NCBI GenBank assembly: GCA_963755055.1
Contig: CAVWIS010000004.1
Coordinates: 125,478 to 189,477, forward strand
Origin: an uncultured Alphaproteobacteria bacterium
GTDB lineage: Bacteria; Pseudomonadota; Alphaproteobacteria; Rhizobiales; Xanthobacteraceae
Length of the DNA stretch: 64,000 nucleotides
Direction of reading: 5' to 3'
The first letter of the stretch is position 1. Every line of letters starts with the position of its first letter. The notes under the pieces were generated by a model. It searched no databases. It saw only the letters and a program-made list of their open reading frames with translations, and was not told where the DNA came from. A program made the position numbers and the translations under genes. This document shows, piece by piece, positions 4,684-44,870 of this stretch.

Positions 4684-4724
4684 ACCTGCCGGCGCCGGCC
4701 GGCCCCACGACAAGGATCGACCTC

Positions 4725-26463: not shown

Positions 26464-26641
26464 GAACGTCCCTCCCTGATATATTCGCGTCCCCGCGTCG
26501 CGACGGACGTTAGAGCATTTTCGGGAAAAGCGGACACCGCTTTTCCGCAATGCCACCATGCATCGCGCCGCGTTATCTGGATTCAATCCAATCTGGCTTT
26601 CAGGTGAGCCAATCCGTGCATCATTTGGTGCTGCATTCGCC

Positions 26642-29672: not shown

Positions 29673-30170
29673 AATTACAGCAGTCTTAGACACTATTCCG
29701 ATGAGACCTACGGTCTAACCTGCATTCCGGCCTGACCTTTGGAAGCTCTGCCCAGACATCGAATCGTGCGCAGCAGACGGCCGTGGCCGGACAACTGCCG
29801 GGACGTGACCGGCGGAGCGGCCGGGAACTACGACCGCGATTGTTGGACCACCCTTCCGCCGGGGCCTATCATGGGGCGATGGGTTCCAAGGCCGAACAGT
29901 TCCGATCGGCAAGCTCGAAATGCTGCGTGTCGAATGCGCAACGGCGAGCGTCGGTCGCTATCGAGTGGCGGCGTTCGCCGAGACGATCGGCCTCGACGGT
30001 TGGCTGACAAACTGGCTGCACGATCTAACGGCGGATTGCCTGCGCAAGAACTAGCCCGGACTTACGGGTGCGTGCGCCACACGGTGCCCGAACCTGTTGA
30101 AAGAGGCTATGACTCGACGGTATGAAACCGATACGGCTCAACGAGACTGCCAGACGACGGGGAAAACTAG

Positions 30171-30356
30171 ATGACGATCTTCGAACCAGGATTTTGGCCT
30201 CTTACTGCTTATATCGGTCTTGTCCTGCTCGTGATGATCTTCATTCGGCTCGGTACGATCAGCCGTCAGCTTGCTGCAGTTCGGGAGGCCAAAGAGCAGC
30301 AATTCAATGCCATGTTCGATCTTGTACGCGACATCCGAAGCTTCAGCGGGCCTTGA
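30171..30356 (+). CDS. Small hypothetical membrane protein (61 aa) in a low-GC island
   Basis: One predicted TM helix (FWPLTAYIGLVLLVMIFIRLG), AT-rich codon usage. No support beyond ORF shape. Confidence 0.3.
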   Translation: MTIFEPGFWPLTAYIGLVLLVMIFIRLGTISRQLAAVREAKEQQFNAMFDLVRDIRSFSGP

Positions 30357-30423
30357 CCCATGCCGCTTATCCGCACGTGAGCCTACCTCAATAGGCGGCG
30401 AAATAATCCAGACGCGGACGGAC

Positions 30424-31329
30424 TCAAGAGTTGGATTCCTTAGTGACTTCGGCCACTCGATCAAGAATTGTCTGAACGAAGAAAAGATCACGGCGATCGG
30501 CGACAATTGTAGTGTGTGCGCGGGTAATCGTGCGGAAATTGATTTCGAAAACGCCCTCCCAATCCAAAACGAGCCAGTCGTGGAGCCCTGGCGGTTTGTG
30601 CGTAAACCGCAGTGCATGTGTCGGCGAGACGGGCATCGTGATCTCGCAGCCCGGCGAGCCGAGACCGCGCGGTGATGTAATCCGACCATCTTCAGATTTA
30701 ATCGGCGGGAAATAGACGACGGCCGGATTATCGCTTGTCAGAAACGGATGGGGTAATTTGTTAATCAGCACATCACATCCGAAGAACCTAGTAAGCGACC
30801 TGATGTAAGCATTGAGCGAATGCGGGAACCATGTCCCCATTGGATCATCGGCCATGCGTTGCGCTTCGGACAGCTTGAGGGCAGGGCCGCCCCGCCCAAG
30901 CGTCGGAATGGGTGGCTTTGCCCGGTCGATGCGGATTGTTCGGGCCTTAGCAACAATTGACGACCATTGCTGCTTCATGTGGTCAATCTTGTGCGGGGGC
31001 CGCGCAAGCATCGCGGCGACGAACCCATACAGCGCAACGACCTCTTTCAATCCCCCGTAGTCGGTGGTCTCGATGAGGCCGCGAACCCGCACGAAATCGC
31101 GTTCGAATCGGCTGAAATGCTTTTCGAGGCTCAGGTCGCGCTGTTCCCCGGAAACAATTGTGTAGAGGTCAGGCATGTTGAAGATGTTTTTCGGACTCCG
31201 TTGCCTGTGTTCGCCGCCCTGTCGATTGAACAAGTGCACGAAAGGTTCGTAATGTCCGGGCCGACTAGGATCGGTCCAGGCCTGCAAATAGCTTTTGGGA
31301 ACCCAATGTTGGTCCTTGTTCGCGACCAT
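30424..31329 (-). CDS. DUF4238 domain-containing protein
   Basis: N-terminal MVANKDQHWVPKSYLQAWT is the DUF4238 hallmark (HxVPxxYLxxW). The gene sits in a distinctly lower-GC segment (about 29.67-31.45 kb). Confidence 0.7.
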   Translation of the reverse strand: MVANKDQHWVPKSYLQAWTDPSRPGHYEPFVHLFNRQGGEHRQRSPKNIFNMPDLYTIVSGEQRDLSLEKHFSRFERDFVRVRGLIETTDYGGLKEVVALYGFVAAMLARPPHKIDHMKQQWSSIVAKARTIRIDRAKPPIPTLGRGGPALKLSEAQRMADDPMGTWFPHSLNAYIRSLTRFFGCDVLINKLPHPFLTSDNPAVVYFPPIKSEDGRITSPRGLGSPGCEITMPVSPTHALRFTHKPPGLHDWLVLDWEGVFEINFRTITRAHTTIVADRRDLFFVQTILDRVAEVTKESNS

Positions 31330-31484
31330 GACTCTAGCCCGGCGTCAGTAGAAGTGCAGGTTTATACAATGAGCGGCGAGCCGCACAAGGGCGTGACTCC
31401 CCGGTCAACGGCGGATGTCGGGATCGAGGCGATCGCCTCGGGCAGGTGCCCACCAGCGCATGTTCCGGTGACACCGTTTCCGAT

Positions 31485-31512
31485 AAGAACATGCGTTAGC
31501 AACGATTCTACC
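31485..31512 (+). promoter_or_regulatory. Conserved upstream motif AAGAACATGCG-N6-CAACGATTCTACC (copy 2), inside the IR GCGCATGTTC-N20-GAACATGCG
   Basis: Sits 89 bp upstream of the TPR ATG at 31601. Confidence 0.4.
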
Positions 31513-32491: not shown

Positions 32492-33352
32492 TTGTTGTGC
32501 GCGATCTCTTGTTCTCGTATCAACGGAGTGCACGCGCGCTTGACAAGTTCGTCATGTGATCAGGCCTTGAGGAGCCGGACTCAAGTGGCGGTCGATAAGG
32601 CTACTTCTGCGGAATTGGCGATTAACGACGTTCTGGAGCTCGTTACTGCTACGGTGCGTTGGTCTCGCGCGAGCCAAACGAGCAAGATATTTTTGAGCGG
32701 CACATTATGGTACGGCATGATGTGTCGTTCTTTTTTGCTGCTGGAACGAATTCTTCGATCTGCGATCGCTGAGTTATCGCAATTAGGCCCGGTGGCAGCG
32801 ACGGAGATCGCAAAGGAACGCGCGGGAGGAAAGCCAATTGCCCAGATGACCTTTGGCCAGTGTGTAGCGTTCGCAGAAGTGCTTGTCCCGCTCGTGTCGG
32901 TCCGTCTGAATAACTCTGAATTTGGCACCGACCGGTCGCTTCTTTCACATGCCGACGTGCAGTTATGGAAACGCGCCGTCTTCCTGCGCAACCGGATGGC
33001 GCATCATGGCCCTGGCTTTCTTGACTCCGTCGACTTGAGTGCCCAAAGGATTTGGCGCAGCCCCGTGGAGGAGAGAGAGCCTCTTGAAGTGCAGGCAGAG
33101 GAGATTTGGCGCCTTTGCAGACAACTTTGCTCGTCGTCGCTCATTATCAGTTATTTGGCAATCAAAGGGATACCAGCAAGCTTGACACGCGCTCAGATAG
33201 CAAAGGCCGAACAGGCCGTTATGGAATTGCAACTAGATACGCGGCAGGAATTGAGAACGATCGGACACGCCGCGTCTATTGCCGTCAATGAATTTCACGC
33301 GCCTAGCCCGGAAAATGGACCTTCGCAAGGCAGTGTGAAGCGATCCACGTAG
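32492..33352 (+). CDS. Hypothetical protein in a second low-GC patch
   Basis: Lower GC than the flanks and no recognisable motifs. Start uncertain. Confidence 0.35.
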   Translation: MLCAISCSRINGVHARLTSSSCDQALRSRTQVAVDKATSAELAINDVLELVTATVRWSRASQTSKIFLSGTLWYGMMCRSFLLLERILRSAIAELSQLGPVAATEIAKERAGGKPIAQMTFGQCVAFAEVLVPLVSVRLNNSEFGTDRSLLSHADVQLWKRAVFLRNRMAHHGPGFLDSVDLSAQRIWRSPVEEREPLEVQAEEIWRLCRQLCSSSLIISYLAIKGIPASLTRAQIAKAEQAVMELQLDTRQELRTIGHAASIAVNEFHAPSPENGPSQGSVKRST

Positions 33353-33628
33353 CACTGATCGCGCGTGAACTGGCGTGAATAGAATGCTTCGACCGTGAAT
33401 GCGTTCGTCGCGATGTTGGAAATGAGGAATCCGCATTCGGAACGAAGCCGACCCCCCAGACAGGATTCGAAATCGCGACCGCAATATTTCAACTCGCCAC
33501 CCGCACTCCTGCGGGTTTGCTAAGCGGGCTGAAAGGCTCGGGTTTGGCAGCGCCTTGAGCCCGCCCGGCGCCTTGAGCCCGCCCGGCGCCTTGAGCCGCA
33601 ACCGAGCATGCCGATGCGATCCATCGCA

Positions 33629-34223
33629 TCAGCGGCAGGAGTAGCGGGTAGCAGAAAACGTGTCGGACACCGCCGACACCTTGGTGTCCCGGTACCCGGC
33701 CTCGCGCATGATCCGGCGGACAGCCGCCTCAGCGAATGGAGAGCCCGAACCTTTTCCGTGAACAACCCAGATTGGAGCTCCGGAAGGCAAGGTCTCGTGG
33801 AGGCGCAGCGCATGCTCAAGCGCTGCCGCGTCCGCGACGACCGCGACGCTGAGCTTGGCCTCCTCGCCGCGAGCGGCCACGCAGCCGGCAAGGGCCTCGC
33901 GGAGCGCCGGATCTTCCGCCGCGCCGATCACCAGGGCTTTTGCTGATGGCCCGACGCCGAGCTTTTGGGCGAGCGTGCGCGGCGGTGCGACAAGCTTCTT
34001 GGCCCAGCGCCCGGCGCGCGCAGCGCCCAGTCCCAGCGCAACCTCCTCGTCGCCGACCCTGAAGCGAAGATCCTCGCCCTCCACCCTCACCTGCGTGATC
34101 GCGGCGACAGGAATGGTGCGCCTCAGGTCGCCGCGCAGGATCAGCTCGCGGGCCTCCAGGAGCGCCCGGACGTCGCCCGAGCCGGCGGTCCACCGACATG
34201 GGCATCGCGCCTCGAGTCCCATC
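33629..34223 (-). CDS. DUF3052-like hypothetical protein
   Basis: MGLEARCPCRWTAGSGDVRALLEARELILRGDLRRTIPVAAI... The DUF assignment is tentative. Confidence 0.4.
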
Positions 34224-34878
34224 CGATCGTCCTCCCAGGTCGGCGTCCGGCTCGCGCCGGCGTCATGAGCCAACCGAAACTAAACGAGCGGGTGCAAGTA
34301 CGCCACGGTCTCGGCCTCGATCGCAGCTTGCGGCAGGTACCGCCACCTGAGCAAACAGCCGAACGAAGGCCGCCCTGATCTATCGTCGAGCCGGTAACCT
34401 GCACACCAACCCACTGCTCCTCGGCTTCGCGCAGCGAGACACAGCTCAGCATGGCCATTTTCAGCACGCAGCTCTTCGGCCATATGCGCGATCGTGATGG
34501 TATCGAAGTATGCCGCAGCATTTTGCGGCTTTGCCATTGGCCTTGCCGTCGCTTGACAGGTCGCTCGGGCCGGCCGTACCGTCGCGCATCTTCACGGTAT
34601 TGGGAGTCCGGTCGTGGCCATCCTGACGTTGAAGGTTATTGCCAGCCTGCTGCAAATGCATGGGCCGGGCGCGACGATCCAGAGCGACCATCAGGGAATC
34701 GACGCGCTGCTCGGCGACATCCGTGGACAGATTTCGGACGAAGGGGTCGCTCAGTGCACGCCCGACGCGACCCAGGTCGTGTTCCGCAAAGGATTCGTCA
34801 GAGGCGGGAGTGGATCATTTCGCCGGGGAGCATTCCGCAGGATCTAGCGCATCTTTCGGCGAAGTGGATGCCGGTTCG

Positions 34879-34904
34879 CCGACGAGAACATGCGCCGCTC
34901 AACG
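34879..34904 (+). promoter_or_regulatory. Conserved upstream motif GAGAACATGCG-N6-CAACGATTCC (copy 3)
   Basis: Sits 85 bp upstream of the radical-SAM ATG at 34989. A partial upstream IR arm GCGCATC is present at 34847. Confidence 0.4.
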
Positions 34905-34988
34905 ATTCCAGAGCACGTCCCGGTCGAACCTGATTGGGACGTGCTCTAGCTTTCCTGCTCCTTCCGCCGCCTTGCCCGGACGTGCTGC

Positions 34989-36176
34989 ATGTCGATTGAC
35001 GACCCGGAGCGTCCTGTTTTCCCAAGTCAGCCGATCTCGCAGCTCCTCATCAAGGTAGCTTCGCGCTGCAATATCGACTGCTCCTATTGCTACTGGTTCC
35101 GCGACGCCGCGGTTTACGACAAGCCCAAGCTGATGAGCGGCGAAGTGCTGCAGCAACTGCTGCGGCGCATCGAGGAGCACATCGTCAAGTACTCGATTGC
35201 TGAATTTCCCCTGATCCTGCACGGCGGCGAGCCGCTGCTGTGGGGGGTCGATAATTTTTGCCGGATTGCCGAGGCCTGCGAGGCCATGGCGGCGCGGACC
35301 AGCTGCGAGATCCCCATTGCGGTGACCACCAACGGCATCCTGATCGACGAGACCTGGCTGGACTGCTTCGAGACCCACGGCATCACGGTCGCCATCAGTC
35401 TCGATGGGCCGGCGCATATTCACGACATTCATCGCCGCACCTTCCAGGGCACAGGCACGCACGCCGCCGTCGAGCGCGCCGCCCGCATGCTGGCATCGCG
35501 CGACATCAATGTGAGCGCACTGGCGGTCTGCAATCCGGCGCATCCGCCGAAGGAATACGTCGATTTCTTCGCCGGGTGTGGAATTCCGAGCTACGACATC
35601 ATGATTCCGGACGCGACAGTGGGCGAGAACCCGCCGCCTATCGCCGCGTTCTACAAGGGCCTGTTCGACCTGTGGCTGGAGGCGAACCGCCGCGAGCGGA
35701 CCGTCGACATCCGCATCGTCACCGACATGGTCGGCGCGCTGCTCGGCAACGACGCGCCGACCGAGGGCGTCGGCTACAAGCCGATCGAGCTCTGCACCGT
35801 GATGACCGACGGCTCGCTGGAAGCCCATGATGTCCTGCGCATCGCCGGCGACGGCGTGACGCAGACGACCTTCAACATTTTCGACCATGCGATCGACGAC
35901 GTGAGGAACGAGCCGCGCTGGAAAGCGGCACGGGAGGCTTCGATCGATCTGTGCGAAAAGTGCCGGCAGTGCAAATTCATGAATGCCTGCGGCGGCGGCT
36001 ATCTTCCTCACCGCTTCTCCAAGGAGAACGGCTACGACAATCCCTCGGTCTATTGCGACGACCTTTACGCGACGTTCGAGCACATCCAGTCGGTGCTCGA
36101 GAGCCATGTCTATGTCGCCAGGCCGGACGGAGAGCGGCTCAAGGTGAGCGACGAGCTCGCGCGCACCGCCGGTTGA
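34989..36176 (+). CDS. Radical SAM / SPASM-domain protein (anSME-like peptide-modifying maturase)
   Basis: CxxxCxxC motif CNIDCSYCYWF at residues 27-34. Cys-rich C-terminal SPASM/twitch region (...ELCTVM..., DLCEKCRQCKFMNACGGGY..., VYCDD). Confidence 0.8.
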   Translation: MSIDDPERPVFPSQPISQLLIKVASRCNIDCSYCYWFRDAAVYDKPKLMSGEVLQQLLRRIEEHIVKYSIAEFPLILHGGEPLLWGVDNFCRIAEACEAMAARTSCEIPIAVTTNGILIDETWLDCFETHGITVAISLDGPAHIHDIHRRTFQGTGTHAAVERAARMLASRDINVSALAVCNPAHPPKEYVDFFAGCGIPSYDIMIPDATVGENPPPIAAFYKGLFDLWLEANRRERTVDIRIVTDMVGALLGNDAPTEGVGYKPIELCTVMTDGSLEAHDVLRIAGDGVTQTTFNIFDHAIDDVRNEPRWKAAREASIDLCEKCRQCKFMNACGGGYLPHRFSKENGYDNPSVYCDDLYATFEHIQSVLESHVYVARPDGERLKVSDELARTAG

Positions 36177-36276
36177 CGGCGAAGGCCGGGCGTCGAGCCG
36201 GCCCTGCCGGCGGCAAGATCTGGCCAGCAGCTCCCGCGTCGGGGTAAGGTGTCAGCCGACCAGGGAGGAATGACAC

Positions 36277-37410
36277 ATGAAAGCGCCGATCGTTGCGGTC
36301 CTCATGTCGCTTGCCGCCAGCGCGCCGGCTCTCGCCGGTACGTTCGTCTACGTCTCCAACGCCGAGGACGGCGATATCGGGATGTACACGCTGCAGGCGG
36401 ACGGCTCGCTTGAGCCGGGACCCCGCTTCAAGGCGGCAAAGCTCGTGATGCCGATGGCGGTGAGCCCGGACAAGCGTTTTCTCATCGCCGCCGTGCGCTC
36501 CAAGCCGTTCCAGGCGTACACCTACGGCATCGACAAGAGCTCGGGCGCGCTCGGCCTGGTCGGCACCGGCCCGCTCGCGGAAAGCTACCCGTATATCGCG
36601 CTCGATCGCAGCGGCCGCTTTCTCCTCGGCGCGTCCTATGGCGCCAACCAGGTGGGGGTGAATCCGGTCGGGGCGGACGGCCGGGTCGGCGAGCCGATCC
36701 AAGTCGTTCCGACGGCGCGCAATGCGCATTCCATCCGCACCGACAACACCAATCGCTTCGTGTTCGTGCCGCACCTCGGCACCGACCAGGTGTTCCAGTT
36801 CCTGCTCGACGAGAAGAGCGGACGACTTTCCGCGAACACCCCGCCGGTCCTCCAGCTCAAGCAGGGCACCGGGCCGCGTCACCTCATCGTCTCGCCCGAC
36901 AACCGGTTCGTCTATCTGCTCAATGAGCTGACCGGCATGGTCACCACGCTGGCGCTCGACCCGGCCGCCGGAACGCTCAAGGAGATCGACTCGGTCTCGG
37001 CGCTGCCGCCGGACACCAAGCTCGGCCCGGGGGTGCCGCGCGGCGCCGTCGGGACGCCCGGCGCCAACCAGGCCCCGCGCAACACCGACAACGACATCTG
37101 GGCCTCGGATCTTCACCTCACGCCGAACGGCCGCTTACTCTACGCGGCGGAGCGCACCTCGAGCACGCTCGGCGCCTTCCGGGTCGATACGGGAAGCGGA
37201 AAGCTCACCTATCTCGGAAGCACGCCGACCGAGAAGCAGCCGCGCGGTTTCGCGATCGACCCGACCGGGCGCTTCGTCGTCGTGAGCGGCGAGCAGTCGG
37301 ACCGGATCGCTTCCTACGCGATCGACGCCGAGACCGGCGCGCTGAAGCCGGTCGGACGCTACCCGACCGGCAAGGGCTCGAACTGGGTGGAGATCGTCGC
37401 CTTCGAGTAG
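36277..37410 (+). CDS. Secreted 7-bladed beta-propeller protein, lactonase family (6-phosphogluconolactonase / 3-carboxymuconate cyclase-like)
   Basis: Signal peptide MKAPIVAVLMSLAASAPALA, then repeated blade motifs (YVSNAEDGDIGMY, FVFVPHLGTDQVFQF, FVYLLNELTGMVTT, LLYAAERTSSTLGAF, FVVVSGEQSDRIASY). Confidence 0.7.
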   Translation: MKAPIVAVLMSLAASAPALAGTFVYVSNAEDGDIGMYTLQADGSLEPGPRFKAAKLVMPMAVSPDKRFLIAAVRSKPFQAYTYGIDKSSGALGLVGTGPLAESYPYIALDRSGRFLLGASYGANQVGVNPVGADGRVGEPIQVVPTARNAHSIRTDNTNRFVFVPHLGTDQVFQFLLDEKSGRLSANTPPVLQLKQGTGPRHLIVSPDNRFVYLLNELTGMVTTLALDPAAGTLKEIDSVSALPPDTKLGPGVPRGAVGTPGANQAPRNTDNDIWASDLHLTPNGRLLYAAERTSSTLGAFRVDTGSGKLTYLGSTPTEKQPRGFAIDPTGRFVVVSGEQSDRIASYAIDAETGALKPVGRYPTGKGSNWVEIVAFE

Positions 37411-37422
37411 CGTCGTACAGGG

Positions 37423-37567
37423 TGGGCAAAATCCGTCGCAAGCGCAGACGCGGGCGCAGGCCGTGCGCGGATTTTGCCCACGCGGTCACACCGGCGTGGT
37501 ACCGCGTGGGCAAATCGCCGGCACCCCATCAGCAAATATCACCCGTCGTGCCCGGCGATTTGCCCAC
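37423..37567. repeat. Two hairpin elements after the beta-propeller gene and upstream of peptide gene 2
   Basis: Hairpin A: GGGCAAAATCCG-N30-CGGATTTTGCCC (37424-37480). Hairpin B: GTGGGCAAATCGCCGGCAC-N23-GTGCCCGGCGATTTGCCCAC (37506-37567). B is near-identical to the element at 37983-38044. Confidence 0.75.
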
Positions 37568-37758
37568 CCTACTCGCGGCGCGCGCCCACTTCCGTTCCTG
37601 ACCAACGTCGGGTAAGGTAGGAAACGCCTGACCGCCCGTCGGCATGCACGGCCGCCGGCGATGCGAACCCGATTGGCTGTCGACCAAGTGCAGCCGATTC
37701 CCGCCGGCCCGAGTAGGCAGGAATCCCTGGAGAGGAGAGCAGACGGCCATGACCACGC

Positions 37759-37931
37759 GAACCGACGCGACGAACGACAGCGAGCCGCGCCCGCTCGACG
37801 AGACAGAGCTCAGGGCCGTAAGCGGCGGCGACAAAGCTTCGGATCAGCAGAGCATGATGCAGATCATGTCGAACATCATTCGCTCGATCCAGGATGCGCA
37901 AAAGAGCATCGTCAACAATATCCGCGGATAA
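37759..37931 (+). CDS. Small protein with double-glycine leader (57 aa): MTTRTDATNDSEPRPLDETELRAVSGG | DKASDQQSMMQIMSNIIRSIQDAQKSIVNNIRG
   Basis: RBS GGAGAGGAG about 8 nt upstream of the ATG. LDETELRAVSGG matches the class-II microcin/bacteriocin GG-leader consensus. The core is a Cys-free amphipathic helix. Confidence 0.6.
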
Positions 37932-37982
37932 TGCGGCGACCGGCGGCGGGAGCCACACCGGCGCCGGACCGCGTGGGCAAAT

Positions 37983-38044
37983 CGCCGGCACGGTAGCACC
38001 AAATATCACTCGCCGTGCCCGGCGATTTGCCCACCCTACGATCG
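37983..38044. repeat. Third copy of the palindromic element, 50 bp after the peptide-2 stop (terminator-like)
   Basis: GTGGGCAAATCGCCGGCAC-N23-GTGCCCGGCGATTTGCCCACCCTAC; the loop shares CAAATATCAC with copy B. Confidence 0.75.
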
Positions 38045-38055
38045 CCGAATACCGG

Positions 38056-40266
38056 CTACTTCCCTTCCAGCGTGAAGACCGGCTCCCAATCCGGCCCGGG
38101 CGGGTGGATGACAAGCACCTTCGCCCGCTTCAGGAGCAGCGCGGCCGGCGGGTCCTCCGCGGCGGTCCGTTCGAGGCATTTTGCCGCGCCGGCGAAGTCG
38201 CGCGCGCGCCAGCAGGCGAGGCCCTCGGCATAGATCGCCGCATGGGCCGACTGCTCCGGCGTCTGCCGGCCGGATTCGGCGAGCAACTCGTGGATGGTGA
38301 CGGGCTGGGCCCGGCCCATGACCTTGATCGCCTCGAGCTCGCGCCAGGCGAACGTCGTCCCGGTCAGCGCCACCGTCGCCTGCGATGCCATGATCGACGT
38401 CGCGAAATACTTGTTGGCCCCTTCGAGCCGCGAGGCGAGGTTCACCGCATCGCCGAGCGAGGTGTAGTTGAAGCGGCGCAGCGAGCCGATATTGCCCACC
38501 AGCACCTCGCCCGAGTGCAGCCCGATCCGGTGGCCGATCGCCAGACCCTGGAATTCCGCAACGGTGCGGTTGAGCTCCTCGAGGCGGGCATTGCAGGTGA
38601 GCGCCGCGCGAACCGCATTGCGGGCATGGTCGGGATCGTCCACCGGCGCGCCGAATATCGCCTTGATCGTGTCGCCGACATATTTGTCGATGTAGCCGCC
38701 GTTGTCCTCGATGATGTCGGTCATCGCCGACAGGTAGGTGTTCAGCACGGTCACCAGCGTGCCCGGCGGCATCTTTTCGGCGAACGAGGAAAAACCGGCG
38801 ATATCCGAGAAGAACATCGTGACCTGGCGGACCTCGCCGCCGAGCGCCGGCAGCTTGTTCGCCGTCATCATCCGGTCGATGACCTCGTCCGCCAGGTAGA
38901 GCGCAAAGCTCTTGCGCAGAAACCGCTCCTCCCGGTCGGCGACAGCGAAGCGATACGCGGTGATCGCAACGATGGCGGCGAGCCCCGCCAGGAACGGCTC
39001 CACCAGGGGCAATGCGACAGAATGCGTGAAGGCGAAGGTCGCAGCCGCGGTGCATGCCGCGAAGAACCCCAAATAGGCGCCCGCCGCCCAGGCAGGCGTC
39101 AGCGCCAGCGCCGTCACCGAGGCCAATCCGGCGAACAGGATGGCGATCGCCGCGGAGGCCACCACCCCGGGCTCCGCGACGGTATCGTGACGGACGAGAT
39201 TGTTGACGGCAGTGGCGTGAACGTAGACGCCGGAGATCGATGCCCGCCGCGCCGCCGCCAGGGCCGGCGCCTCGGGCAGCGCGCAGCGCGGAGCCGCGGC
39301 GTGCTCGGGGCCGGTCGCCAGCCGCTTCGAGGTGACCTTGCGGTCCTCGATGTCGAGCAGGGTGCCGACGAGCACGATCTTGCCGCCGAAATGGCGGCGA
39401 AAGAACTCCTTGTCGTCCTTCTCTACGCAGGCGCGCAGATCGGCGAATGAAAAGGTCAGGATATCCTCGGCGCCGCCGTCGAAATTGAGCGTGACGGTGT
39501 TGGCGATCGCGCTCGGAAACCGGCGCCCGGCAAGCGTCAACGTTTCGTCGGGCGAAAACTCGGGAGCGACCCCGAGCGCCCGGGAGGCAAGCTCGACCGC
39601 CATGGACGGCGTGCGCCTGCCCCCGCCGGAAAAGGCCAGCGGCAGGCGGCGCACCACGCCGTCCGGATCGATGTAGACGTTCAGCGGACGGATGTTTCTC
39701 TGCTGACCGACGGCGATCCGCTGCGCCGGGGATGGCCGGACAGGCCGGTCGCGGTCCTCGATCTCGCCGAGCACGACGTTGCCGGAGCGGGCGCCGGCGG
39801 CAAGCGCCCGGAGAAAATCGCGGTCGAAGCCGCGCACGCGCGCGCCCAAGAGGTCGCCGTCGAACGGCATCTCCGATTGCTCGAGCGAGGCGGTAAAAAT
39901 GACGTCGAAGCCGACCACCCTGGCGCCGCCCTCGAGCATTGCGGTGAGCACGCGGCCGATCTCGCGCGTCCAGGTGATGCTCGGCGAGCCTTTGAACGGC
40001 GGGCGCTGGTAGCTCTCCTCGTCGATTGCCACCACCACGACCGGGGCCGATGCGGGGTCATGGCGGGCGCCGAACGCCTGCCAGCGCAGCATCGTGAGCA
40101 GGTCGATCGACAGGCCGTGCAGGATTCCAAGTGCCGGCGACGCGAAGAGCGCGCCGGATGCGAGCGCGATCACGATGACGGCGAGAACGTCGCGTCTGGA
40201 CAGTCGCCGGCGCCGTACGGGCGAGCGACGCGGCAAAGCCCTATTCCAGGCGCAGCAGACGGCCAA
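38056..40266 (-). CDS. CHASE2 sensor-domain adenylate/guanylate cyclase
   Basis: N-terminal TM, a CHASE2-like periplasmic region, a multi-TM segment, then a class-III cyclase domain (...TMFFSDIAGFSSFAE..., ...LHSGEVLVGNIGS...RFNYTSLGDAVNLASRLEG). Start uncertain (the ORF-track start is TTG). Confidence 0.75.
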   Translation of the reverse strand: MAVCCAWNRALPRRSPVRRRRLSRRDVLAVIVIALASGALFASPALGILHGLSIDLLTMLRWQAFGARHDPASAPVVVVAIDEESYQRPPFKGSPSITWTREIGRVLTAMLEGGARVVGFDVIFTASLEQSEMPFDGDLLGARVRGFDRDFLRALAAGARSGNVVLGEIEDRDRPVRPSPAQRIAVGQQRNIRPLNVYIDPDGVVRRLPLAFSGGGRRTPSMAVELASRALGVAPEFSPDETLTLAGRRFPSAIANTVTLNFDGGAEDILTFSFADLRACVEKDDKEFFRRHFGGKIVLVGTLLDIEDRKVTSKRLATGPEHAAAPRCALPEAPALAAARRASISGVYVHATAVNNLVRHDTVAEPGVVASAAIAILFAGLASVTALALTPAWAAGAYLGFFAACTAAATFAFTHSVALPLVEPFLAGLAAIVAITAYRFAVADREERFLRKSFALYLADEVIDRMMTANKLPALGGEVRQVTMFFSDIAGFSSFAEKMPPGTLVTVLNTYLSAMTDIIEDNGGYIDKYVGDTIKAIFGAPVDDPDHARNAVRAALTCNARLEELNRTVAEFQGLAIGHRIGLHSGEVLVGNIGSLRRFNYTSLGDAVNLASRLEGANKYFATSIMASQATVALTGTTFAWRELEAIKVMGRAQPVTIHELLAESGRQTPEQSAHAAIYAEGLACWRARDFAGAAKCLERTAAEDPPAALLLKRAKVLVIHPPGPDWEPVFTLEGK

Positions 40267-40918
40267 TCACCGGGGTCGCCCCGGACCTGCCGTTGAGATC
40301 GACCTTGAAGACCGCCCGCCGCGTCCCGAGGCTCGCCTCGTAGACGACGCCCGGCACCAGCTCCTTGCGGGCCTCGGCGAGATCGTAGAACTTGCCCCGC
40401 ACCAGCGACTTGCCGTCGATCGCCAGCTGATGGCGCTCGCCTTTGCGATCGAGGCGCTCGATCACCAGGGTGCCGGGACGATCGACCTCCACCAGCGGCG
40501 AACGGCCATAGATCGTGACGTAGGGCTGTCGCACCCCTTGCTGGTCCGGCGCCATGTTGCGGAATACGGTCGCCGCGCTCTGACCCTGCACGGGCTCGGC
40601 GAGCTGCGTCTGGTTCGAGTCGCAGTCGACCCTCTGGCGATACAGCTTGCCGTTCTCGACCGTGCTCTGCTCGCGGCCGACGGTCACGACCCCGCCGGTG
40701 ATCCGTTCCTGCAGACAGGAGGTCATGTAGCCGAGCACGACCACATCTTGCGGACCGAGCCTGATCACCGTTCCCGGCGTGACGTAGTCCATGAACTCGA
40801 TGCCGGGGATTTTTCCGGTGACCTCCTCGACCACCGCGACCGGAGGCTGGGCCGCGGCCGCCGCCGCGAACCCGAGCCCGCCGACCAAAGCGCCGACGAA
40901 CATCCTGATATGTGCCAT
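40241..40918 (-). CDS. Secreted hypothetical protein (upstream partner of the CHASE2 cyclase)
   Basis: Signal peptide MAHIRMFVGALVGGLGFAAAAAAQP. Overlaps the cyclase start by about 25 nt, so the two are probably co-operonic. Confidence 0.5.
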   Translation of the reverse strand: MAHIRMFVGALVGGLGFAAAAAAQPPVAVVEEVTGKIPGIEFMDYVTPGTVIRLGPQDVVVLGYMTSCLQERITGGVVTVGREQSTVENGKLYRQRVDCDSNQTQLAEPVQGQSAATVFRNMAPDQQGVRQPYVTIYGRSPLVEVDRPGTLVIERLDRKGERHQLAIDGKSLVRGKFYDLAEARKELVPGVVYEASLGTRRAVFKVDLNGRSGATPVIGRLLRLE

Positions 40919-41229
40919 AGCGGGGGGTATCCTTCCGTGACTGGTTTTGCCGGCAAATGTACGGCCTTGACGAGCAAGAGCCGTGATCCAGACCACCCCG
41001 GGCCTTGAGACCCCGCAATGCCGGAGAGCATGTGCGAGTTCGCGACGATTGTCCATTCACTTGCCGCGGCGCAGCGCAAAGAAAATCGTCCATTTTCTCG
41101 CCCTGGTTGCGCACGCGGCGGCGACGCGCACGAGACTGTGACCGCCGCGCGGCGACGGTGCGTGCAGGTCGCCTTGGGTTGGGATTTGCCGGCCATGAGT
41201 ACCGCTCCCGGTTGCCGGCGTCGGTTTCA

Positions 41230-41358
41230 ATTCACGCCACCTTCAATGTCGGAATGGCCTTAATCTTCTCCCCGAGCTCGCTGGGACGGCCCGTCAAGGA
41301 GATGATCGGCGGCATTACCGGATGGCAAGATGAAGGCTTCGAGCTCGCACACATCTGA
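41230..41358 (+). pseudogene. Possible C-terminal remnant of a rhodanese-domain gene
   Basis: ...LGRPVKEMIGGITGWQDEGFELAHI* resembles a rhodanese C-terminus (GGxxAWxxAGxP). No upstream body is present. Confidence 0.25.
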
Positions 41359-41486
41359 AACGAGGCATTAAGGTCACTGTATTCCTGACGGACAGCCGGA
41401 ATTCGCCGCCATGAACACAGTCTACGGGCAGCAAATCGAGCAGCCGTAGCCCGCGCAAACAACGATCGCAGGTACCGGGACAATCT

Positions 41487-42284
41487 TCAGGCAAGAGTTC
41501 GATGATGTCTGCGTACGCCATATATGGCGGCGTTCCAAGCAACAGAAACGCCAAGGGCGAGAACGAGAGCCAGCGCGGACCCGACTGGCTCCGCTGTTAG
41601 GTGCAGCGTCAGCAGCGCTGCACCAAACCCGGCAAGGCCGGAAATGGCGTTCGCCAGCACCGCGGCCGTAGCCGGGCCGCCGATGCGGCGATGCAAGATC
41701 AGCATGATGCTCGCATAGATCACAGGGAAAACAGCAAGCACGCCGCTTCCTTCCGCGCCAATTTTGAAACTTAAGGCGACAATGACGCCGACGAGCACGG
41801 TCACCATACCGGCCCTTATGACCAAGTCGTACCAGGCCTGCGTCGTCGTTGGCATGCGTACGTGAGAGAACGGCCTCACAATGAAGAAGCAGGACGCGAA
41901 AACAACCAGATTGAGAACGAATGCTCGGGATACAGTCCAGTGAAAAGCGCTGAGCGCCAACGTGGTCGTGAGCCATACCACGAATGCAACGGACACGCTG
42001 AGCCACAGCGAGTGTCGTTGTGCAATCAGTACGTAGGTCGTTAGAAAGATCGCGGTTGCGGCGTTCAATGCTAGGCTTGCCACCGCGCTCGCGGAAATAA
42101 AAGCCGCGTCGTGATCGAGCGCCAAGAACACGTAAACAGGCCCAGCTGAGACGGGCAGCGTCGCCACGAGCGCTCCCACGATGGCGCCGAGTCTTTCCGC
42201 TATGATGGTCGCTATGCTCACGAACAAGGCGGTGACCGCCATTTTCGCTGCAAGCGCAAGCCAGAATATAAGTTCGGGAGACAT
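41487..42284 (-). CDS. Hypothetical multi-pass membrane protein
   Basis: About 8 hydrophobic helices. Lower GC than its surroundings. Confidence 0.5.
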   Translation of the reverse strand: MSPELIFWLALAAKMAVTALFVSIATIIAERLGAIVGALVATLPVSAGPVYVFLALDHDAAFISASAVASLALNAATAIFLTTYVLIAQRHSLWLSVSVAFVVWLTTTLALSAFHWTVSRAFVLNLVVFASCFFIVRPFSHVRMPTTTQAWYDLVIRAGMVTVLVGVIVALSFKIGAEGSGVLAVFPVIYASIMLILHRRIGGPATAAVLANAISGLAGFGAALLTLHLTAEPVGSALALVLALGVSVAWNAAIYGVRRHHRTLA

Positions 42285-42533
42285 CGTGCCTGAAACTCCG
42301 CGATAAAATGGGGAAACTGCTGCGCTGGTTGTAGATGCCCGCCGCCGGTCTAACCTTCGCGGTTGCTGGATGCCCAGTACAAGAGCACGCCGATCCGCCG
42401 CATCTGTTCGGACTCCGCGCCGGCGTCGATCAGCAAATAAACTCGCGTCGCCTCACCGGCCGCCGCTTCAGCCAGACGCACCTATCCTACCACACCGCTG
42501 ACGAGCAGACCGCATCGAGCGGTACGCTACCGC

Positions 42534-43100
42534 ATGACGTCTGCTTCGGGTCTTTCGCGTCGATATTGCCATGTGCGCTGCTTGGTCCGCTATCCACAAC
42601 ACCGGACATTACCACGTCCGACTGAGACCTGTCTGGTTGCCGCCTTCCTGCGCCGGTTCTGCAAACAACGGGCACAGCCGCCGCAGCTCCCGCATTCCGC
42701 CGAATTGCGCAAGCGAGCAAGCGAAGCAGACGCCAAACTCAAGCGGCTCTACGACGCGATCGAGAACGGGATGGCCAATCTCTCCGACCCGATGTTGAAG
42801 GACCGAATTGCCGAGCTCAAGGCGATCCGCGATCAGGCCCGCGCCGACGCAGAGCGGGCCGAGGATGCAATCGAACGGCTCGGACCGAGCATCGCAGCGC
42901 AAGCTCTCAGAACGTTCGCCAAGCAGGCCCGCAAGCGGATGCGGACCGAGAGTGGCGGCTACCGTCGCGACCATCTCCGCGCGCTCGCCCAGCGCGTCGA
43001 AGTCGACGCGAAAGAAGTTCGTATCGTGGGATCGAAAAGCGCACCTCTTCGCACCCTCGTCGCCGCTTCGAGCGCGAAAACGGCGGGTTTTGGCGTTACC
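42534..43100 (+). pseudogene. C-terminal fragment of a large serine recombinase (zinc-ribbon remnant plus coiled-coil tail)
   Basis: ...AELRKRASEADAKLKRLYDAIENGMANLSDPMLKDRIAELKAIRDQARADAERAEDAIERLG...DHLRALAQRVEVDAKEVRIVGSKSAPLRTLVAASSAK matches the conserved C-terminal region of recombinase-family proteins. No catalytic N-terminal domain is present. The frame reads through into the next gene. Confidence 0.6.
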
Positions 43101-43124
43101 AGTTTTGTACCGACGTGGCGCCCC

Positions 43125-43175
43125 GGAAGGGATTCGAACACTTGGCTCCGGGCTTGGAAAGCCGGCGGCCGGCCC
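43125..43175 (-). other. 3' half of a tRNA gene (tRNA-Gly(UCC)-like): candidate att-site remnant
   Basis: The minus-strand sequence carries an anticodon loop TTTCCAA, a T-arm AAGTG-TTCGAAT-CCCTT, acceptor strand CCGGGGC-G-CCA, and stem mismatches. No 5' half (acceptor 5' strand / D-arm) can be folded. Confidence 0.45.
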
Positions 43176-43305
43176 GGCTCGACAGCGACCGGCCGAGCTT
43201 CCCCCTCGCCCGCCGTGCTACTATCCCGCCCTCCCCGGAGCCAACCGGGACGGGCCACATCGGGCAGGTTTCGCCCTGCCCGGCGACAAGCATTGCCACG
43301 GAGGA

Positions 43306-44870
43306 ACCACCCGATGAGCTGGCAGAACGAGCTCGAGGAGCTGCGCCGGCGCGAGGCGCTTGCCCGCGAGATGGGCGGGCCCGACAAGGTGCGGCGGCAG
43401 CACGACGGCGGCCGACTGACCGTGCGCGAGCGCATCGGCAAGCTCATCGATCCGGGCAGCTTTCACGAGGTCGGCGCGCTCGCCGGCCGCGCCCAGTATG
43501 ACGCGGCGGGCGACCTCGTCTCGTTCACGCCGGCGAACTGCGTGTTCGGCCGCGGCATGGTCGACGGCCGGCCGGTCGTGGTGGTGGGCGACGATTTCAC
43601 CGTGCGCGGCGGCTCGGCGGACGCCACCATCCGCGAAAAACCGCTGATGGCCGAGCAGATGGCGAGCGAGTTCCGCCTGCCGATCATCCGCATCATCGAG
43701 GGGTCCGGCGGCGGCGGCTCGGTGAAGACCATCGAGACGACCGGGCGCGCCAACCTGCCGGGCGGCGTCGGCGGCTCGATGGGCTTCCATTACGCCACCG
43801 CCAACCTCGCCGTGGTCCCGGTGGTGGCGCTCGGCCTCGGCTCGGTGGCGGGGCTCGGCGCGGCGCGGCTTGCCGCCAGCCACTACTCGGTGATGACCAA
43901 AACCTCCGCCATGTTCGTCGCCGGGCCGCCGGTGGTGGCGCGGATCGGCGAGGATCTGACCAAGCAGGAGCTCGGCGGCTGGCAGATCCAGACGCGCAGC
44001 GGCGCGGTGGACCACGCGGTCGACACCGAGGACGAGGCTTTCGCCTGCACGCGTCGCTTCTTGTCCTATCTGCCGAGCTCGGTGCACGCGGTGGCGCCAA
44101 GAATCGCCAGCGACGACGATCCGCGGCGACGCGACGAAAGCCTGATGAAGGCGATCCCGCGCGACCGCCGAAAAGTCTACAAGATGCGCCCGATCGTCGA
44201 GACATTGGTCGACCGCGGCAGCTTTTTCGAGATGGGAAGCATGTTCGGCCGCTCGGTCATTACCGGGTTCGCCCGGCTCGAGGGCCGCGCCGTCGCCGTG
44301 ATGGCAAGCGATCCCTATTTCCACGCCGGCGCCTGGACGGCGGAGAGCTGCCAGAAGGTGGTGCGGTTCCTCGATCTCGCCGAAACCTTCCACCTGCCGG
44401 TGGTCTACCTGATGGACTGCCCGGGTTTTCTGATCGGGCTGGAGGCCGAGCGGACGGCGACGATCCGCCATGGCGTCCGCGCCATGGCGGCGATGAACCA
44501 GACCACCGTGCCGTGGTGCACCATCATCGTGCGCAACTCCTTCGGCGTCGCCGGCGCCGTGCACAAGCCGGCCGGGCGGCTGGCGCTGCGCTATGCCTGG
44601 CTCTCCGGCTACTGGGGCTCGCTGCCGCTCGAAGGCGGCATCGAGGCGGCCTATCGGGCCGACATCGACGCCGCGGCCGATCCGGCAGCAAAGCTCGGCG
44701 AGATCGAGACGCGGCTCAACAAGCTGCGCTCGCCGTTCCGCACCGCGGAAACGTTCTGGGTCGAAGAAATCATCGACCCGCGCGACACCAGGGCGCTCAT
44801 CTGCGAGTTCGCGCGCCTCGCCGAGCCGCTGCTGACCCCCGGGCCGTCCGCCTTCCCGATGCGGCCCTGA
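43306..44870 (+). CDS. Acyl-CoA carboxylase carboxyltransferase subunit (propionyl-CoA carboxylase beta / AccD superfamily)
   Basis: MSWQNELEELRRREALAREMGGPDKVRRQHDGGRLTVRERIGKLIDPGSF...: duplicated crotonase-fold CT domains. Own ATG at 43306; the 778-aa ORF is an artefactual fusion with the recombinase fragment. Confidence 0.8.

What the first reader, a model, noticed from the sequence alone, without database searches (positions are those of the whole stretch)
34870..40266. Candidate RiPP-like or peptide-signalling locus: radical-SAM/SPASM maturase, secreted beta-propeller, GG-leader peptide boxed by palindromic elements, convergent CHASE2 cyclase
A radical-SAM enzyme with a CxxxCxxC cluster and a Cys-rich SPASM/twitch C-terminus (34989-36176) is followed by a secreted 7-bladed lactonase-type beta-propeller. 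Next comes a 57-aa ORF whose N-terminus (…LDETELRAVSGG) is a textbook double-glycine leader, with a strong RBS. That small gene is flanked by near-identical 62-bp hairpin elements (37506-37567 and 37983-38044). No C39 peptidase-ABC exporter, which normally cleaves GG leaders, is in the window, and the core peptide has no Cys, so sactipeptide/ranthipeptide chemistry is excluded. The combination of an rSAM/SPASM maturase with a GG-leader, Cys-free helical core does not match any RiPP class I can name (PQQ, mycofactocin, QHNDH, darobactin, streptide, SCIFF). The immediately convergent CHASE2 sensor cyclase raises the possibility that the processed peptide is an extracellular signal.
Basis: partly seen in the sequence, partly recalled or inferred. 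Interest (0 to 1): 0.72.

Follow-up and report, generated by a model that had tools for sequence, protein, structure and literature searches.

The report
Cyclophane peptide cassette with unrelated neighbours

Summary
All the listed features exist, with small errors. The small ORF is 60 aa, not 57. The second hairpin is at 37973-38034. There is also a third hairpin. They do not form one system.

The rSAM/SPASM protein (34989-36176) belongs to the three-residue-cyclophane ("triceptide") maturase clade. Its best NCBIfam hits are YhhB and FxsB, both below their cut-offs. Its best solved structure is the triceptide synthase ChlB (E 1.3e-56).

Upstream, at 34614-34847, lies a GTG-started 77-aa ORF. 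It has a conserved leader and four Phe-x-Arg/Lys motifs (FRK, FVR, FRR, FRR). This peptide-plus-rSAM pair recurs in 67 of 76 loci that align with the rSAM. Of 75 related loci, mostly Bradyrhizobium and other Xanthobacteraceae, none has the lactonase or the small ORF next to the rSAM, and a few carry only a distant (24-30%) cyclase-domain match.

The 60-aa ORF is a real gene of a very rare double-glycine-leader peptide family (7 clusters among 5.8 billion proteins). Its core has no aromatic residue, so it cannot be a cyclophane substrate. Strong hairpins separate it from the lactonase upstream and the cyclase downstream.

Verdict: a new member of a known RiPP kind, plus an orphan GG-leader peptide. 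Modest interest.

The parts
34602..34606 (+). Shine-Dalgarno-like GGGAG, 7 nt before the GTG start of the precursor gene
   Evidence: Read from the sequence.
34614..34847 (+). Triceptide-type precursor peptide gene (77 aa, GTG start). The leader is roughly residues 1-56 (MAILTLKVIASLLQMHGPGATIQSDHQGIDALL...). The core is residues 57-77 (FRKGFVRGGSGSFRRGAFRRI).
   Evidence: DNA and protein conservation upstream of the rSAM in the related loci. An ORF with this leader is recovered in 67/76 loci. Alignment A4 shows a conserved leader and a variable core rich in [FY]-x-[RK]. An 80-aa homologue with the same GTG start was called independently in L202. GC by codon position is 0.64/0.47/0.74.
34782..34844 (+). 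Core region with four aromatic-x-basic motifs: F57-R-K59, F61-V-R63, F69-R-R71, F74-R-R76. These are the predicted sites of Phe-to-C-beta cyclophane cross-links.
   Evidence: Motif positions read from the translation. The chemistry is inferred from triceptide literature (PMC11499958).
34847..34947 (+). Two palindromes in the precursor-rSAM spacer (about 34847-34895 and 34910-34947). They may be inserted REP/MITE-like elements, or an attenuator between the precursor and enzyme genes.
   Evidence: Fold of 34900-34950: 17-bp stem, dG -30.2, z -6.8. The spacer is 141 nt here against about 25-50 nt in most loci. Loci with 125-150-nt spacers also carry palindromes.
34989..36176 (+). Radical SAM/SPASM three-residue-cyclophane-forming maturase (395 aa), with no RRE domain and no HExxH domain.
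   Evidence: NCBIfam: YhhB 301.7 bits (cut-off 445), FxsB 287.8 (370), XyeB 171, anSME 143 (349). PDB: ChlB rSAM domain 9gm3, E 1.3e-56 over residues 17-369. 2793 homologues at E<=1e-20.
36277..37410 (+). Secreted lactonase-type 7-bladed beta-propeller (377 aa). A neighbour, not part of the cassette.
   Evidence: PF10282, E 3.7e-72. PRK11028 at 284 bits is below its cut-off of 370. No homologue within 6 kb of the rSAM in 75 loci, nor in L202.
37422..37481 (.). Palindromic element A (GTGGGCAAA...TTTGCCCAC), directly after the lactonase stop.
   Evidence: dG -43, z -4.9.
37506..37567 (.). Palindromic element B, upstream of the small ORF.
   Evidence: dG -35.2, z -6.1.
37729..37739 (+). Shine-Dalgarno GGAGAGGAGAG of the small ORF.
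   Evidence: Read from the sequence. Largely conserved in L002 (one G-to-C change).
37749..37931 (+). 60-aa double-glycine-leader peptide gene. The leader is residues 1-27 (...LDETELRAVSGG). The core is residues 28-60 (DKASDQQSMMQIMSNIIRSIQDAQKSIVNNIRG). It is independent of the rSAM.
   Evidence: 87%-identical homologue P0002/L002, with differences by codon position of 4/4/10. GC3 is 0.80. Distant family with the same leader motif and C-terminal helix. The leader matches the end of a Nif11-type leader in PDB. The AF2 model shows helices 18-25 and 30-59 at low confidence, pLDDT 64.5.
37973..38034 (.). Palindromic element C, between the convergent small ORF and cyclase genes.
   Evidence: dG -43.4, z -7.1. 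Also present in L002.
38056..40266 (-). CHASE2-domain class III nucleotidyl cyclase (736 aa). A convergent neighbour.
   Evidence: PF05226, E 3.8e-30. PF00211, E 3.4e-23.
40241..41056 (-). 271-aa protein with a signal-like N-terminus. It overlaps the cyclase start by 26 nt and is the likely operon partner of the cyclase.
   Evidence: ORF list. No Pfam or NCBIfam family above threshold.

Best explanation
The region holds two unrelated peptide genes and some bystanders.

(1) A two-gene triceptide-type RiPP cassette. The 77-aa precursor (34614-34847) is made with a conserved leader. The leader is bound by the adjacent RRE-less rSAM/SPASM enzyme (34989-36176). By analogy with characterised 3-residue-cyclophane synthases, the enzyme uses a 5'-deoxyadenosyl radical to abstract the C-beta hydrogen of the third residue. 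It then joins that carbon to the Phe ring at each of FRK, FVR, FRR and FRR, losing 2 Da per ring. A protease and exporter encoded elsewhere release a Gly/Arg-rich polycyclic cationic peptide of unknown role.

(2) The lactonase propeller, the 60-aa GG-leader peptide gene and the CHASE2 cyclase are separate transcription units. Strong palindromic hairpins sit between them. The 60-aa peptide is most likely an unmodified double-glycine-leader peptide, cleaved after G27 and exported by a C39-peptidase ABC transporter encoded elsewhere.

Shown: family placement, the conserved gene pair, the motifs, the lack of synteny with the other genes, and that the small ORF is a real conserved gene.
Inferred: the cross-link chemistry, leader removal, export, and any biological activity.
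For: - rSAM family: best NCBIfam hits are cyclophane maturases YhhB, FxsB, XyeB, DynA and GrrM. The best solved structure is triceptide synthase ChlB, E 1.3e-56, aligned across residues 17-369 including the CxxxCxxC and SPASM Cys motifs.
- Upstream ORF: conserved at DNA and protein level in the related loci. An intact leader plus a core with 4-8 [FY]-x-[RK] motifs is found in most of the 67 loci (of 76) that carry the ORF. The frame is kept despite many length changes, 77-131 aa.
- rSAM relatives at about 60% identity keep the leader but switch to Y-x-K cores (L058, L061, L063). L059 has four precursor paralogues around the rSAM.
- An independent gene call of the 80-aa precursor exists in an 87%-identical relative.
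- No other neighbour family occurs in more than 11 of 75 loci. The lactonase and small ORF are never adjacent, and cyclase hits are only distant domain matches.
- The triceptide definition (aromatic-x-x with an aromatic-to-C-beta link), enzymes acting on HNR, YDR and FTK motifs, and Phe-modifying enzymes such as XncB, MscB and OscB are described in PMC11499958.
- Positive control: a genuine yhhA/yhhB pair has the same precursor-then-rSAM layout and an aromatic-x-Arg motif.
- Small ORF: coding-like substitution pattern and GC3. A 7-cluster family shares L..[ED]L..V.GG and a C-terminal helix.
Against: - No experiment. The cross-link is inferred from homology at about 31-35% identity to annotated YhhB/FxsB enzymes.
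- Scores are below the curated cut-offs of every named subfamily, so a different reaction on the same motifs cannot be excluded, for example C-gamma linkage, C-O or C-N.
- No protease or transporter is linked, so maturation is unexplained.
- In this genome the lactonase follows the rSAM on the same strand after only 100 nt, with no terminator found by the scan. Co-transcription here is therefore possible.
- For the small ORF, no C39-peptidase ABC exporter (PCAT) is seen near any family member. GG-dependent processing is therefore untested.
Confidence: 0.8

Rival explanations
1. The rSAM, propeller and GG-leader 60-aa peptide form one new RiPP or signalling locus, in which the rSAM modifies the Cys-free helical core and the product is sensed by the CHASE2 cyclase.
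For: Physical proximity, with the rSAM, lactonase and small ORF on the same strand. The GG leader is real and family-conserved. The small ORF and cyclase adjacency is kept in the one close relative, L002.
Against: None of the 75 related loci has the lactonase or small ORF nearby, and cyclase matches are only distant, nor does the 87%-identical relative. The rSAM already has a conserved cognate precursor. The small-ORF core has no aromatic residue for cyclophane chemistry. Two strong hairpins lie between the lactonase and the small ORF. Small-ORF relatives have no rSAM or cyclase nearby.
Confidence: 0.03
2. The rSAM is a non-peptide maturase (an anaerobic sulfatase-maturating enzyme or a cofactor enzyme), and the upstream ORF is a chance ORF of a GC-rich genome.
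For: anSME models and structures do match (143 bits; PDB 4k37, E 5e-27). Long spurious ORFs are common at 67% GC.
Against: The anSME score is far below its cut-off of 349 and far below the cyclophane maturase hits. No sulfatase neighbour recurs. The upstream ORF keeps its frame, leader and aromatic-x-basic motifs across 67 loci, with cores that vary by whole codons.
Confidence: 0.02
3. In this lineage only, the secreted lactonase-type propeller has been recruited as a tailoring or processing partner of the triceptide cassette and is co-transcribed with the rSAM.
For: Same strand, a 100-nt gap, and no terminator-like site between them. The 100%-identical Logan contig L001 also shows the lactonase start downstream.
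Against: Absent from all other cassettes, including the 85-87% relatives. The protein has a signal-like N-terminus (read from the sequence), while the rSAM acts in the cytoplasm. The family is an abundant housekeeping-like lactonase.
Confidence: 0.07
4. The 60-aa ORF is not an exported GG-leader peptide. It is a small cytoplasmic helical protein, for example a regulator or a fragment related to type III secretion needle or rod subunits.
For: One distant 125-aa relative (P0127) weakly matches T3SS_needle_F (E 0.0025) and SctI (E 0.013), both below their thresholds. No PCAT is near any member.
Against: The six short members give no needle hit in Pfam or NCBIfam. A family profile finds no needle protein in PDB, but it does match the GG end of a Nif11 leader. 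L..[ED]L..V.GG is the most conserved part across distant members. No T3SS genes were noticed among the window's large ORFs, most of which were not family-scanned.
Confidence: 0.15

Closest known systems
Triceptides / three-residue cyclophane-forming rSAM enzymes (3-CyFEs: XyeB, GrrM/OscB, FxsB, YhhB, ChlB, HaaB, HtkB, XncB, MscB)
   Same: rSAM/SPASM enzyme without an RRE. The precursor gene lies immediately upstream. The core carries repeated aromatic-x-x motifs with a basic third residue, as in HNR (YhhB), YDR (ChlB) and HTK/FTK (HtkB). Several motifs occur per precursor.
   Different: Below the curated cut-off of every named subfamily. Only 31-35% identical to annotated YhhB/FxsB enzymes. 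The leader and Gly-rich F-R-R core match no NCBIfam or Pfam precursor model. It is a bare two-gene cassette with no linked protease, transporter or tailoring gene. The chemistry is untested.
YhhA/YhhB system (NF041705/NF041707)
   Same: Best-scoring NCBIfam model. Same gene order. The cross-linked motif ends in Arg.
   Different: A genuine YhhB is 716 aa with a fused aKG-HExxH beta-hydroxylase domain and scores 488.6 bits. The window protein is 395 aa, has no HExxH domain and scores 301.7. YhhA has a single C-terminal His motif and matches NF041705, whereas the window precursor does not.
FxsA/FxsB (FxSxx-COOH) system, TIGR04269
   Same: Second-best model. Phe is the aromatic residue.
   Different: 287.8 bits against a cut-off of 370. 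The precursor ends in FRRI, not FxSxx. Its motifs are F-x-R/K. No FxsC/FxsD-like neighbours recur.
Double-glycine-leader peptides (class II bacteriocins and microcins, Nif11/NHLP-type leaders) exported by C39-peptidase ABC transporters
   Same: The small ORF has L-x3-E-L-x2-V-x-G-G about 27 residues from the N-terminus, followed by a short core. In some relatives two such peptide genes sit in tandem, as in two-peptide bacteriocins.
   Different: No match to any curated bacteriocin or leader model. No transporter or immunity gene is nearby in any context seen. The core is hydrophilic and amphipathic, without Cys or aromatic residues. The family is extremely rare.

Membership tests
Triceptide (3-residue cyclophane) RiPP system | rSAM enzyme with a CxxxCxxC and SPASM domain, homologous to characterised 3-CyFEs | tested here: met
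   Full-length hits to YhhB, FxsB and XyeB models (E 6e-90 to 2e-50). ChlB structure E 1.3e-56 over residues 17-369.
Triceptide (3-residue cyclophane) RiPP system | Adjacent precursor peptide with leader and aromatic1-X2-X3 motifs in the core | tested here: met
   ORF 34614-34847 has FRK, FVR, FRR and FRR. The pair is conserved in 67/76 loci.
Triceptide (3-residue cyclophane) RiPP system | Aromatic-ring-to-C-beta C-C cross-link (-2 Da per motif) | not testable with these tools
   Needs co-expression followed by MS and NMR.
YhhB equivalog (NF041707) with YhhA precursor (NF041705) | Score above the curated cut-off, a fused HExxH domain, and a YhhA-type precursor | tested here: not met
   301.7 bits against 445. 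The protein is 395 aa with no HExxH domain, whereas a genuine YhhB is 716 aa and scores 488.6 bits. The precursor gives no NF041705 hit.
FxsB subfamily (TIGR04269) | Score above the cut-off and a precursor ending in FxSxx-COOH | tested here: not met
   287.8 bits against 370. The precursor ends ...GAFRRI.
GrrM/OscB glycine-rich-repeat system (TIGR04261) | Score above the cut-off | tested here: not met
   130.5 bits against 310, although the core is Gly-rich.
Anaerobic sulfatase-maturating enzyme | Score above the cut-off and a sulfatase partner | tested here: not met
   143.3 bits against 349. No recurrent sulfatase neighbour.
Double-glycine-leader exported peptide (small ORF) | Leader consensus L-x3-[ED]-L-x2-[IV]-x-G-[GA] preceding the core | tested here: met
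   Conserved in the six aligned family members, with L16, L21, V24 and G27 invariant. It matches the terminus of a Nif11 leader.
Double-glycine-leader exported peptide (small ORF) | Dedicated C39-peptidase ABC transporter | tested here: not met
   None in the 64-kb window. None within 7-10 kb in L078-L080. It could be encoded elsewhere in the genome, which was not available.
Double-glycine-leader exported peptide (small ORF) | Cleavage after GG and secretion | not testable with these tools
   Needs proteomics or an in vitro C39 assay.

The most novel reading that the evidence does not exclude
The 60-aa ORF founds a previously undescribed, very rare family of double-glycine-leader peptides of Gram-negative soil bacteria. 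Members are sometimes encoded in tandem pairs. They would be processed in trans by an unlinked C39-peptidase transporter and act as a bacteriocin-like or signalling helix. In this lineage it is conceivably sensed by the adjacent periplasmic CHASE2 cyclase.

Separately, the Bradyrhizobium F-R-R cassette could make a polycationic multi-cyclophane peptide with a cross-link type or function not yet seen in triceptides.
Probability: 0.2. Interest if true: 0.55.

Novelty: new member of a known kind. Interest (0 to 1): 0.3.

Why it matters
It corrects a mis-assembled locus. The rSAM has a clear cognate precursor and class, so the proposed new RiPP class with a GG leader and a Cys-free helical core disappears.

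What remains useful is a widespread but uncharacterised triceptide subfamily in Bradyrhizobium and other Xanthobacteraceae, which are dominant soil bacteria. It is a minimal two-gene cassette with multi-copy Phe/Tyr-x-Arg/Lys cores, and it is a simple target for heterologous expression and for studying substrate tolerance.

The orphan GG-leader peptide family is a small curiosity. It shows that double-glycine peptides can sit far from any transporter.

Tried and rejected
- Link to T3SS needle proteins. I noticed by eye that the small-ORF C-terminus resembles needle-protein C-termini. Only the 125-aa outlier P0127 gives weak sub-threshold hits. A family profile did not retrieve any needle protein from PDB. 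Dropped.
- Looking for more small-ORF relatives and contexts. A word-indexed search gave 2, then 7 proteins. An exhaustive phmmer gave 7 hits, one of them a low-complexity repeat protein. The metagenome locus scan found none. An alignment of all six was too divergent to scan with. tblastn against plasmids found none. An exact look-up of the window's own copy returned no contig.
- Distribution of the GTGGGCAAA...TTTGCCCAC hairpin. There are 3 copies in the window, all around the small ORF. There are none in about 0.9 Mb of related loci except L002. Whether it is a genome-wide REP family therefore remains open.
- Rfam: nothing at or near gathering scores in 34000-38300 or 41000-44000.
- Promoter scan: no sigma-70-like site, which is not informative for this organism.
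- Literature: no paper in the library links cyclophanes or triceptides with Bradyrhizobium. The two key triceptide survey papers (Nguyen 2020, Sugiyama 2022) are not held. I could not check whether this cassette is among their roughly 3900 predicted pathways.
- AF2 model of the small peptide: low confidence (pLDDT 64.5), two helices, not taken to a fold search.

Full report
**Observation.**
- A 395-aa radical-SAM ORF at 34989-36176, with RCNIDCSYCYW.
- A 377-aa ORF at 36277-37410.
- A small ORF ending at 37931.
- A convergent 736-aa ORF at 38056-40266.

Pfam and NCBIfam give Radical_SAM plus full-length hits to SPASM peptide maturases. They also give Lactonase PF10282 (E 3.7e-72), and CHASE2 with Guanylate_cyc.

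Three details need correcting.
- The small ORF is 37749-37931, which is 60 aa rather than 57. It does have the ...LDETELRAVSGG motif and a GGAGAGGAGAG Shine-Dalgarno sequence.
- The palindromes are at 37506-37567 and 37973-38034.
- A third related palindrome lies at 37422-37481.

All three palindromes fold far better than shuffles (dG -35 to -43 kcal/mol, z -4.9 to -7.1). No ORF in the window combines an ABC signature with the length of a peptidase-ABC exporter, and there is no second GG-leader small ORF.

**What the rSAM is.** The best NCBIfam models are all cyclophane-forming peptide maturases.

| Model | Bits | Curated cut-off |
|---|---|---|
| YhhB | 301.7 | 445 |
| FxsB | 287.8 | 370 |
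| XyeB | 171 | 450 |
| DynA | 132 | 450 |
| GrrM/OscB | 130 | 310 |
| Anaerobic sulfatase maturase | 143 | 349 |

The closest solved structure is the rSAM domain of ChlB (9gm3), E 1.3e-56. It aligns over residues 17-369, including the CxxxCxxC and the C-terminal Cys motifs. ChlB, YhhB, HtkB and related enzymes are triceptide synthases. They link an aromatic ring to the C-beta of the third residue of an aromatic-x-x motif. Known motifs include HNR for YhhB, YDR for ChlB and HTK/FTK for HtkB (PMC11499958). It fits the triceptide class, as an unnamed subfamily.

**The missed precursor.** I fetched 75 genomic loci encoding relatives of the rSAM. Most are Bradyrhizobium and other Xanthobacteraceae at 70-85% identity, with some at 59-60%. 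A tblastn of the window's neighbouring proteins found no lactonase and no small ORF. It also found no homologue of the upstream 214-aa gene, of the 271-aa gene beyond the cyclase, or of the 265-, 279- and 286-aa flanking ORFs. The only cyclase hits were distant (24-30%) class III cyclase-domain matches in seven loci.

A blastn of the flanks instead showed one conserved block, at window 34612-34833. That block is a GTG-started ORF at 34614-34847, with GGGAG 7 nt upstream. It encodes MAILTLKVIASLLQMHGPGATIQSDHQGIDALLGDIRGQISDEGVAQCTPDATQVVFRKGFVRGGSGSFRRGAFRRI.

Homologous ORFs lie just upstream of the rSAM in 67 of 76 loci (76 counts the window and the contig fragments that align with the rSAM). 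The spacer is usually 25-50 nt.
- The leader (M.I.TLKV.A.LLQ.HGPGATIQSDH.GI.ALL) is strongly conserved.
- The linker varies in length.
- The core is a Gly-rich array of 4-8 [F/Y]-x-[R/K] motifs, such as ...VYFRRGGFIRGGGYGGGFRRAGY...GGFVRGY.
- Nearly all stay in frame over lengths of 77-131 aa.
- Relatives whose rSAM is only about 60% identical keep the leader but carry Tyr-x-Lys cores (L058, L061, L063).
- A Methylocella MAG has four precursor paralogues around the rSAM (L059).
- In an 87%-identical relative, the metagenome annotators called the 80-aa gene independently. It has the same GTG start and the same ...AFRRGAFRRI end.

This is the standard signature of a RiPP precursor and maturase pair. 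The window copy has four candidate sites: F57-R-K, F61-V-R, F69-R-R and F74-R-R.

**No other partners.** I clustered all credible ORFs within 6 kb of the rSAM in the 75 loci. No family occurs in more than 11 of them. The immediate neighbours range from methyltransferases and cytochrome bd subunits to histidine kinases and cyclases. The unit is therefore a bare two-gene cassette in shifting contexts.

In the window, the 141-nt precursor-rSAM spacer carries two palindromes, at about 34847-34895 and at 34910-34947. The second has a 17-bp stem, dG -30.2, z -6.8. Most of the other loci with unusually long spacers (125-150 nt) also hold palindromic inserts. These may be REP/MITE-like insertions or may attenuate read-through into the enzyme gene. 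I did not resolve this.

**Positive control and membership.** A PGAP-annotated yhhA/yhhB pair on a Rhizobium tumorigenes plasmid has the same layout: the precursor, then 10 nt, then the rSAM.
- Its YhhB is 716 aa with a fused aKG-HExxH hydroxylase domain and scores 488.6 bits.
- Its YhhA ends ...HHRHNRS and matches NF041705.
- The window enzyme is 395 aa, lacks that domain and scores 301.7.
- The window precursor matches no curated model.

The window cassette therefore works like a triceptide system but is not a YhhB, FxsB, XyeB or GrrM equivalog. I file it as a new, uncharacterised member of the known kind. I could not check whether it is among the roughly 3900 predicted triceptide pathways mentioned in PMC11499958, because the survey papers are not held.

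**The small ORF.** It is a real gene.
- Its GC by codon position is 0.51/0.43/0.80.
- Against its one close homologue (P0002 in L002, 87% aa identity), the differences fall 4/4/10 by codon position.
- The core is more conserved than the leader (5/102 against 13/81 nt). The Shine-Dalgarno sequence is largely kept (one substitution) and the downstream hairpin is kept.

It is extremely rare. There are 2 hits, then 7 with a profile, among 5.8 billion clusters. An exhaustive phmmer over 1.8 billion representatives gives 7 hits.

The distant members (58-64 aa) share L..[ED]L..V.GG at the same distance from the N-terminus. They also share a C-terminal helix of the form ..MQ.MSNII[RK]S..D.QK.IV.NIR. 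The leader part matches the GG end of a Nif11-type leader in PDB. In three contigs, a member is followed 70 nt downstream by a second, different GG-leader peptide gene (...LDERDLDSVAGG-LFGQVRQLFDKYRETAKGMIQSIGR). The pair sits between a GntR regulator gene and isocitrate dehydrogenase. No rSAM, cyclase or ABC exporter lies within 7-10 kb.

The core of the window peptide has no Phe, Tyr, Trp, His or Cys. It offers no site for the neighbouring enzyme's chemistry. Two strong hairpins separate it from the lactonase gene, and a third separates it from the convergent cyclase gene.

The best reading is an independent, unmodified double-glycine-leader peptide that is cleaved and exported by a transporter encoded elsewhere. 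Its function is unknown. The link to the CHASE2 cyclase rests on adjacency in a single lineage only. The cyclase has its own overlapping upstream partner gene at 40241-41056.

**Verdict.** There is a RiPP maturase and a GG-leader peptide, but they do not belong together. The maturase's class and substrate are identifiable. Interest is modest. The finding comes down to two things:
- an uncharacterised but widespread triceptide-type two-gene cassette of soil Bradyrhizobium and other Xanthobacteraceae;
- a very rare orphan GG-leader peptide family.

Noticed in passing
window 34847-34947; L009, L034, L051, L054, L067 spacers: The precursor-rSAM spacer is about 100 nt longer than usual in the window and in several other loci. 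In each case the extra DNA is one or two strong palindromes, for example AGCATGATCCGGAAAAGTG..CCGGTTTTCCGAAAAGATCATGCT in L034 and L051. These look like small REP/MITE-like insertions into the same intergenic site, or an attenuator.
   Followed up: partly
L058, L061, L063, L059, L062: rSAM relatives at about 60% identity keep the leader but have Tyr-x-Lys-rich cores (YQKVYLKDDYYYGKGNYAKYIKGKYAKAV). L059 (a Methylocella MAG) carries four precursor paralogues flanking one rSAM.
   Followed up: partly
L026, L027, L030, L032, L033 (about 4000-5500); L202 1-1054: In five Bradyrhizobium loci a class III adenylate/guanylate cyclase gene lies immediately upstream of the precursor gene. L202 has a dCache-cyclase 7 kb upstream, and the window has a CHASE2 cyclase 2 kb downstream. 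This is probably chance, since I recall these genomes carrying many such cyclases, but it was not tested statistically.
   Followed up: no
L078 1023-1199 (also L079, L080): A second, unrelated GG-leader peptide gene (58 aa, core LFGQVRQLFDKYRETAKGMIQSIGR) sits 70 nt downstream of the small-ORF relative P0128. The arrangement resembles a two-peptide bacteriocin pair, without a transporter.
   Followed up: partly
P0127 (125 aa, metagenomic): A distant relative of the small-ORF C-terminal helix gives weak, sub-threshold hits to T3SS needle (PF09392, E 0.0025) and inner-rod SctI (E 0.013) models. The short family members do not.
   Followed up: partly
window 30000-31500 and 32500-33500: GC drops to 0.54-0.58, against 0.67 overall. 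Few ORFs there have coding-like GC3. The 286-aa ORF at 32492-33352 has no Pfam family. This may be horizontally acquired or decaying DNA just upstream of the cassette.
   Followed up: no
window 22881-24647 and 24703-26586 (minus strand): Tandem paralogous S15 (X-Pro dipeptidyl-peptidase / CocE-NonD type) hydrolase genes. Each has an identical 104-aa antisense ORF, which shows a stretch of identical DNA in the two copies.
   Followed up: no
window 42534-43395: The long ORF 42534-44870 matches carboxyl transferase only from residue 288. By eye, its first 250 or so codons (...RIAELKAIRDQARADAERAEDAIERLGP...VPTWRPGRDSNT) look like the C-terminal remnant of a recombinase. No tRNA or Rfam hit was found there.
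   Followed up: partly
window 33629-34273 (minus strand) and 34280-34600: The 214-aa ORF upstream of the cassette has no Pfam or NCBIfam family. The 330 nt between it and the precursor gene hold no convincing ORF and are not conserved in other loci.
   Followed up: no
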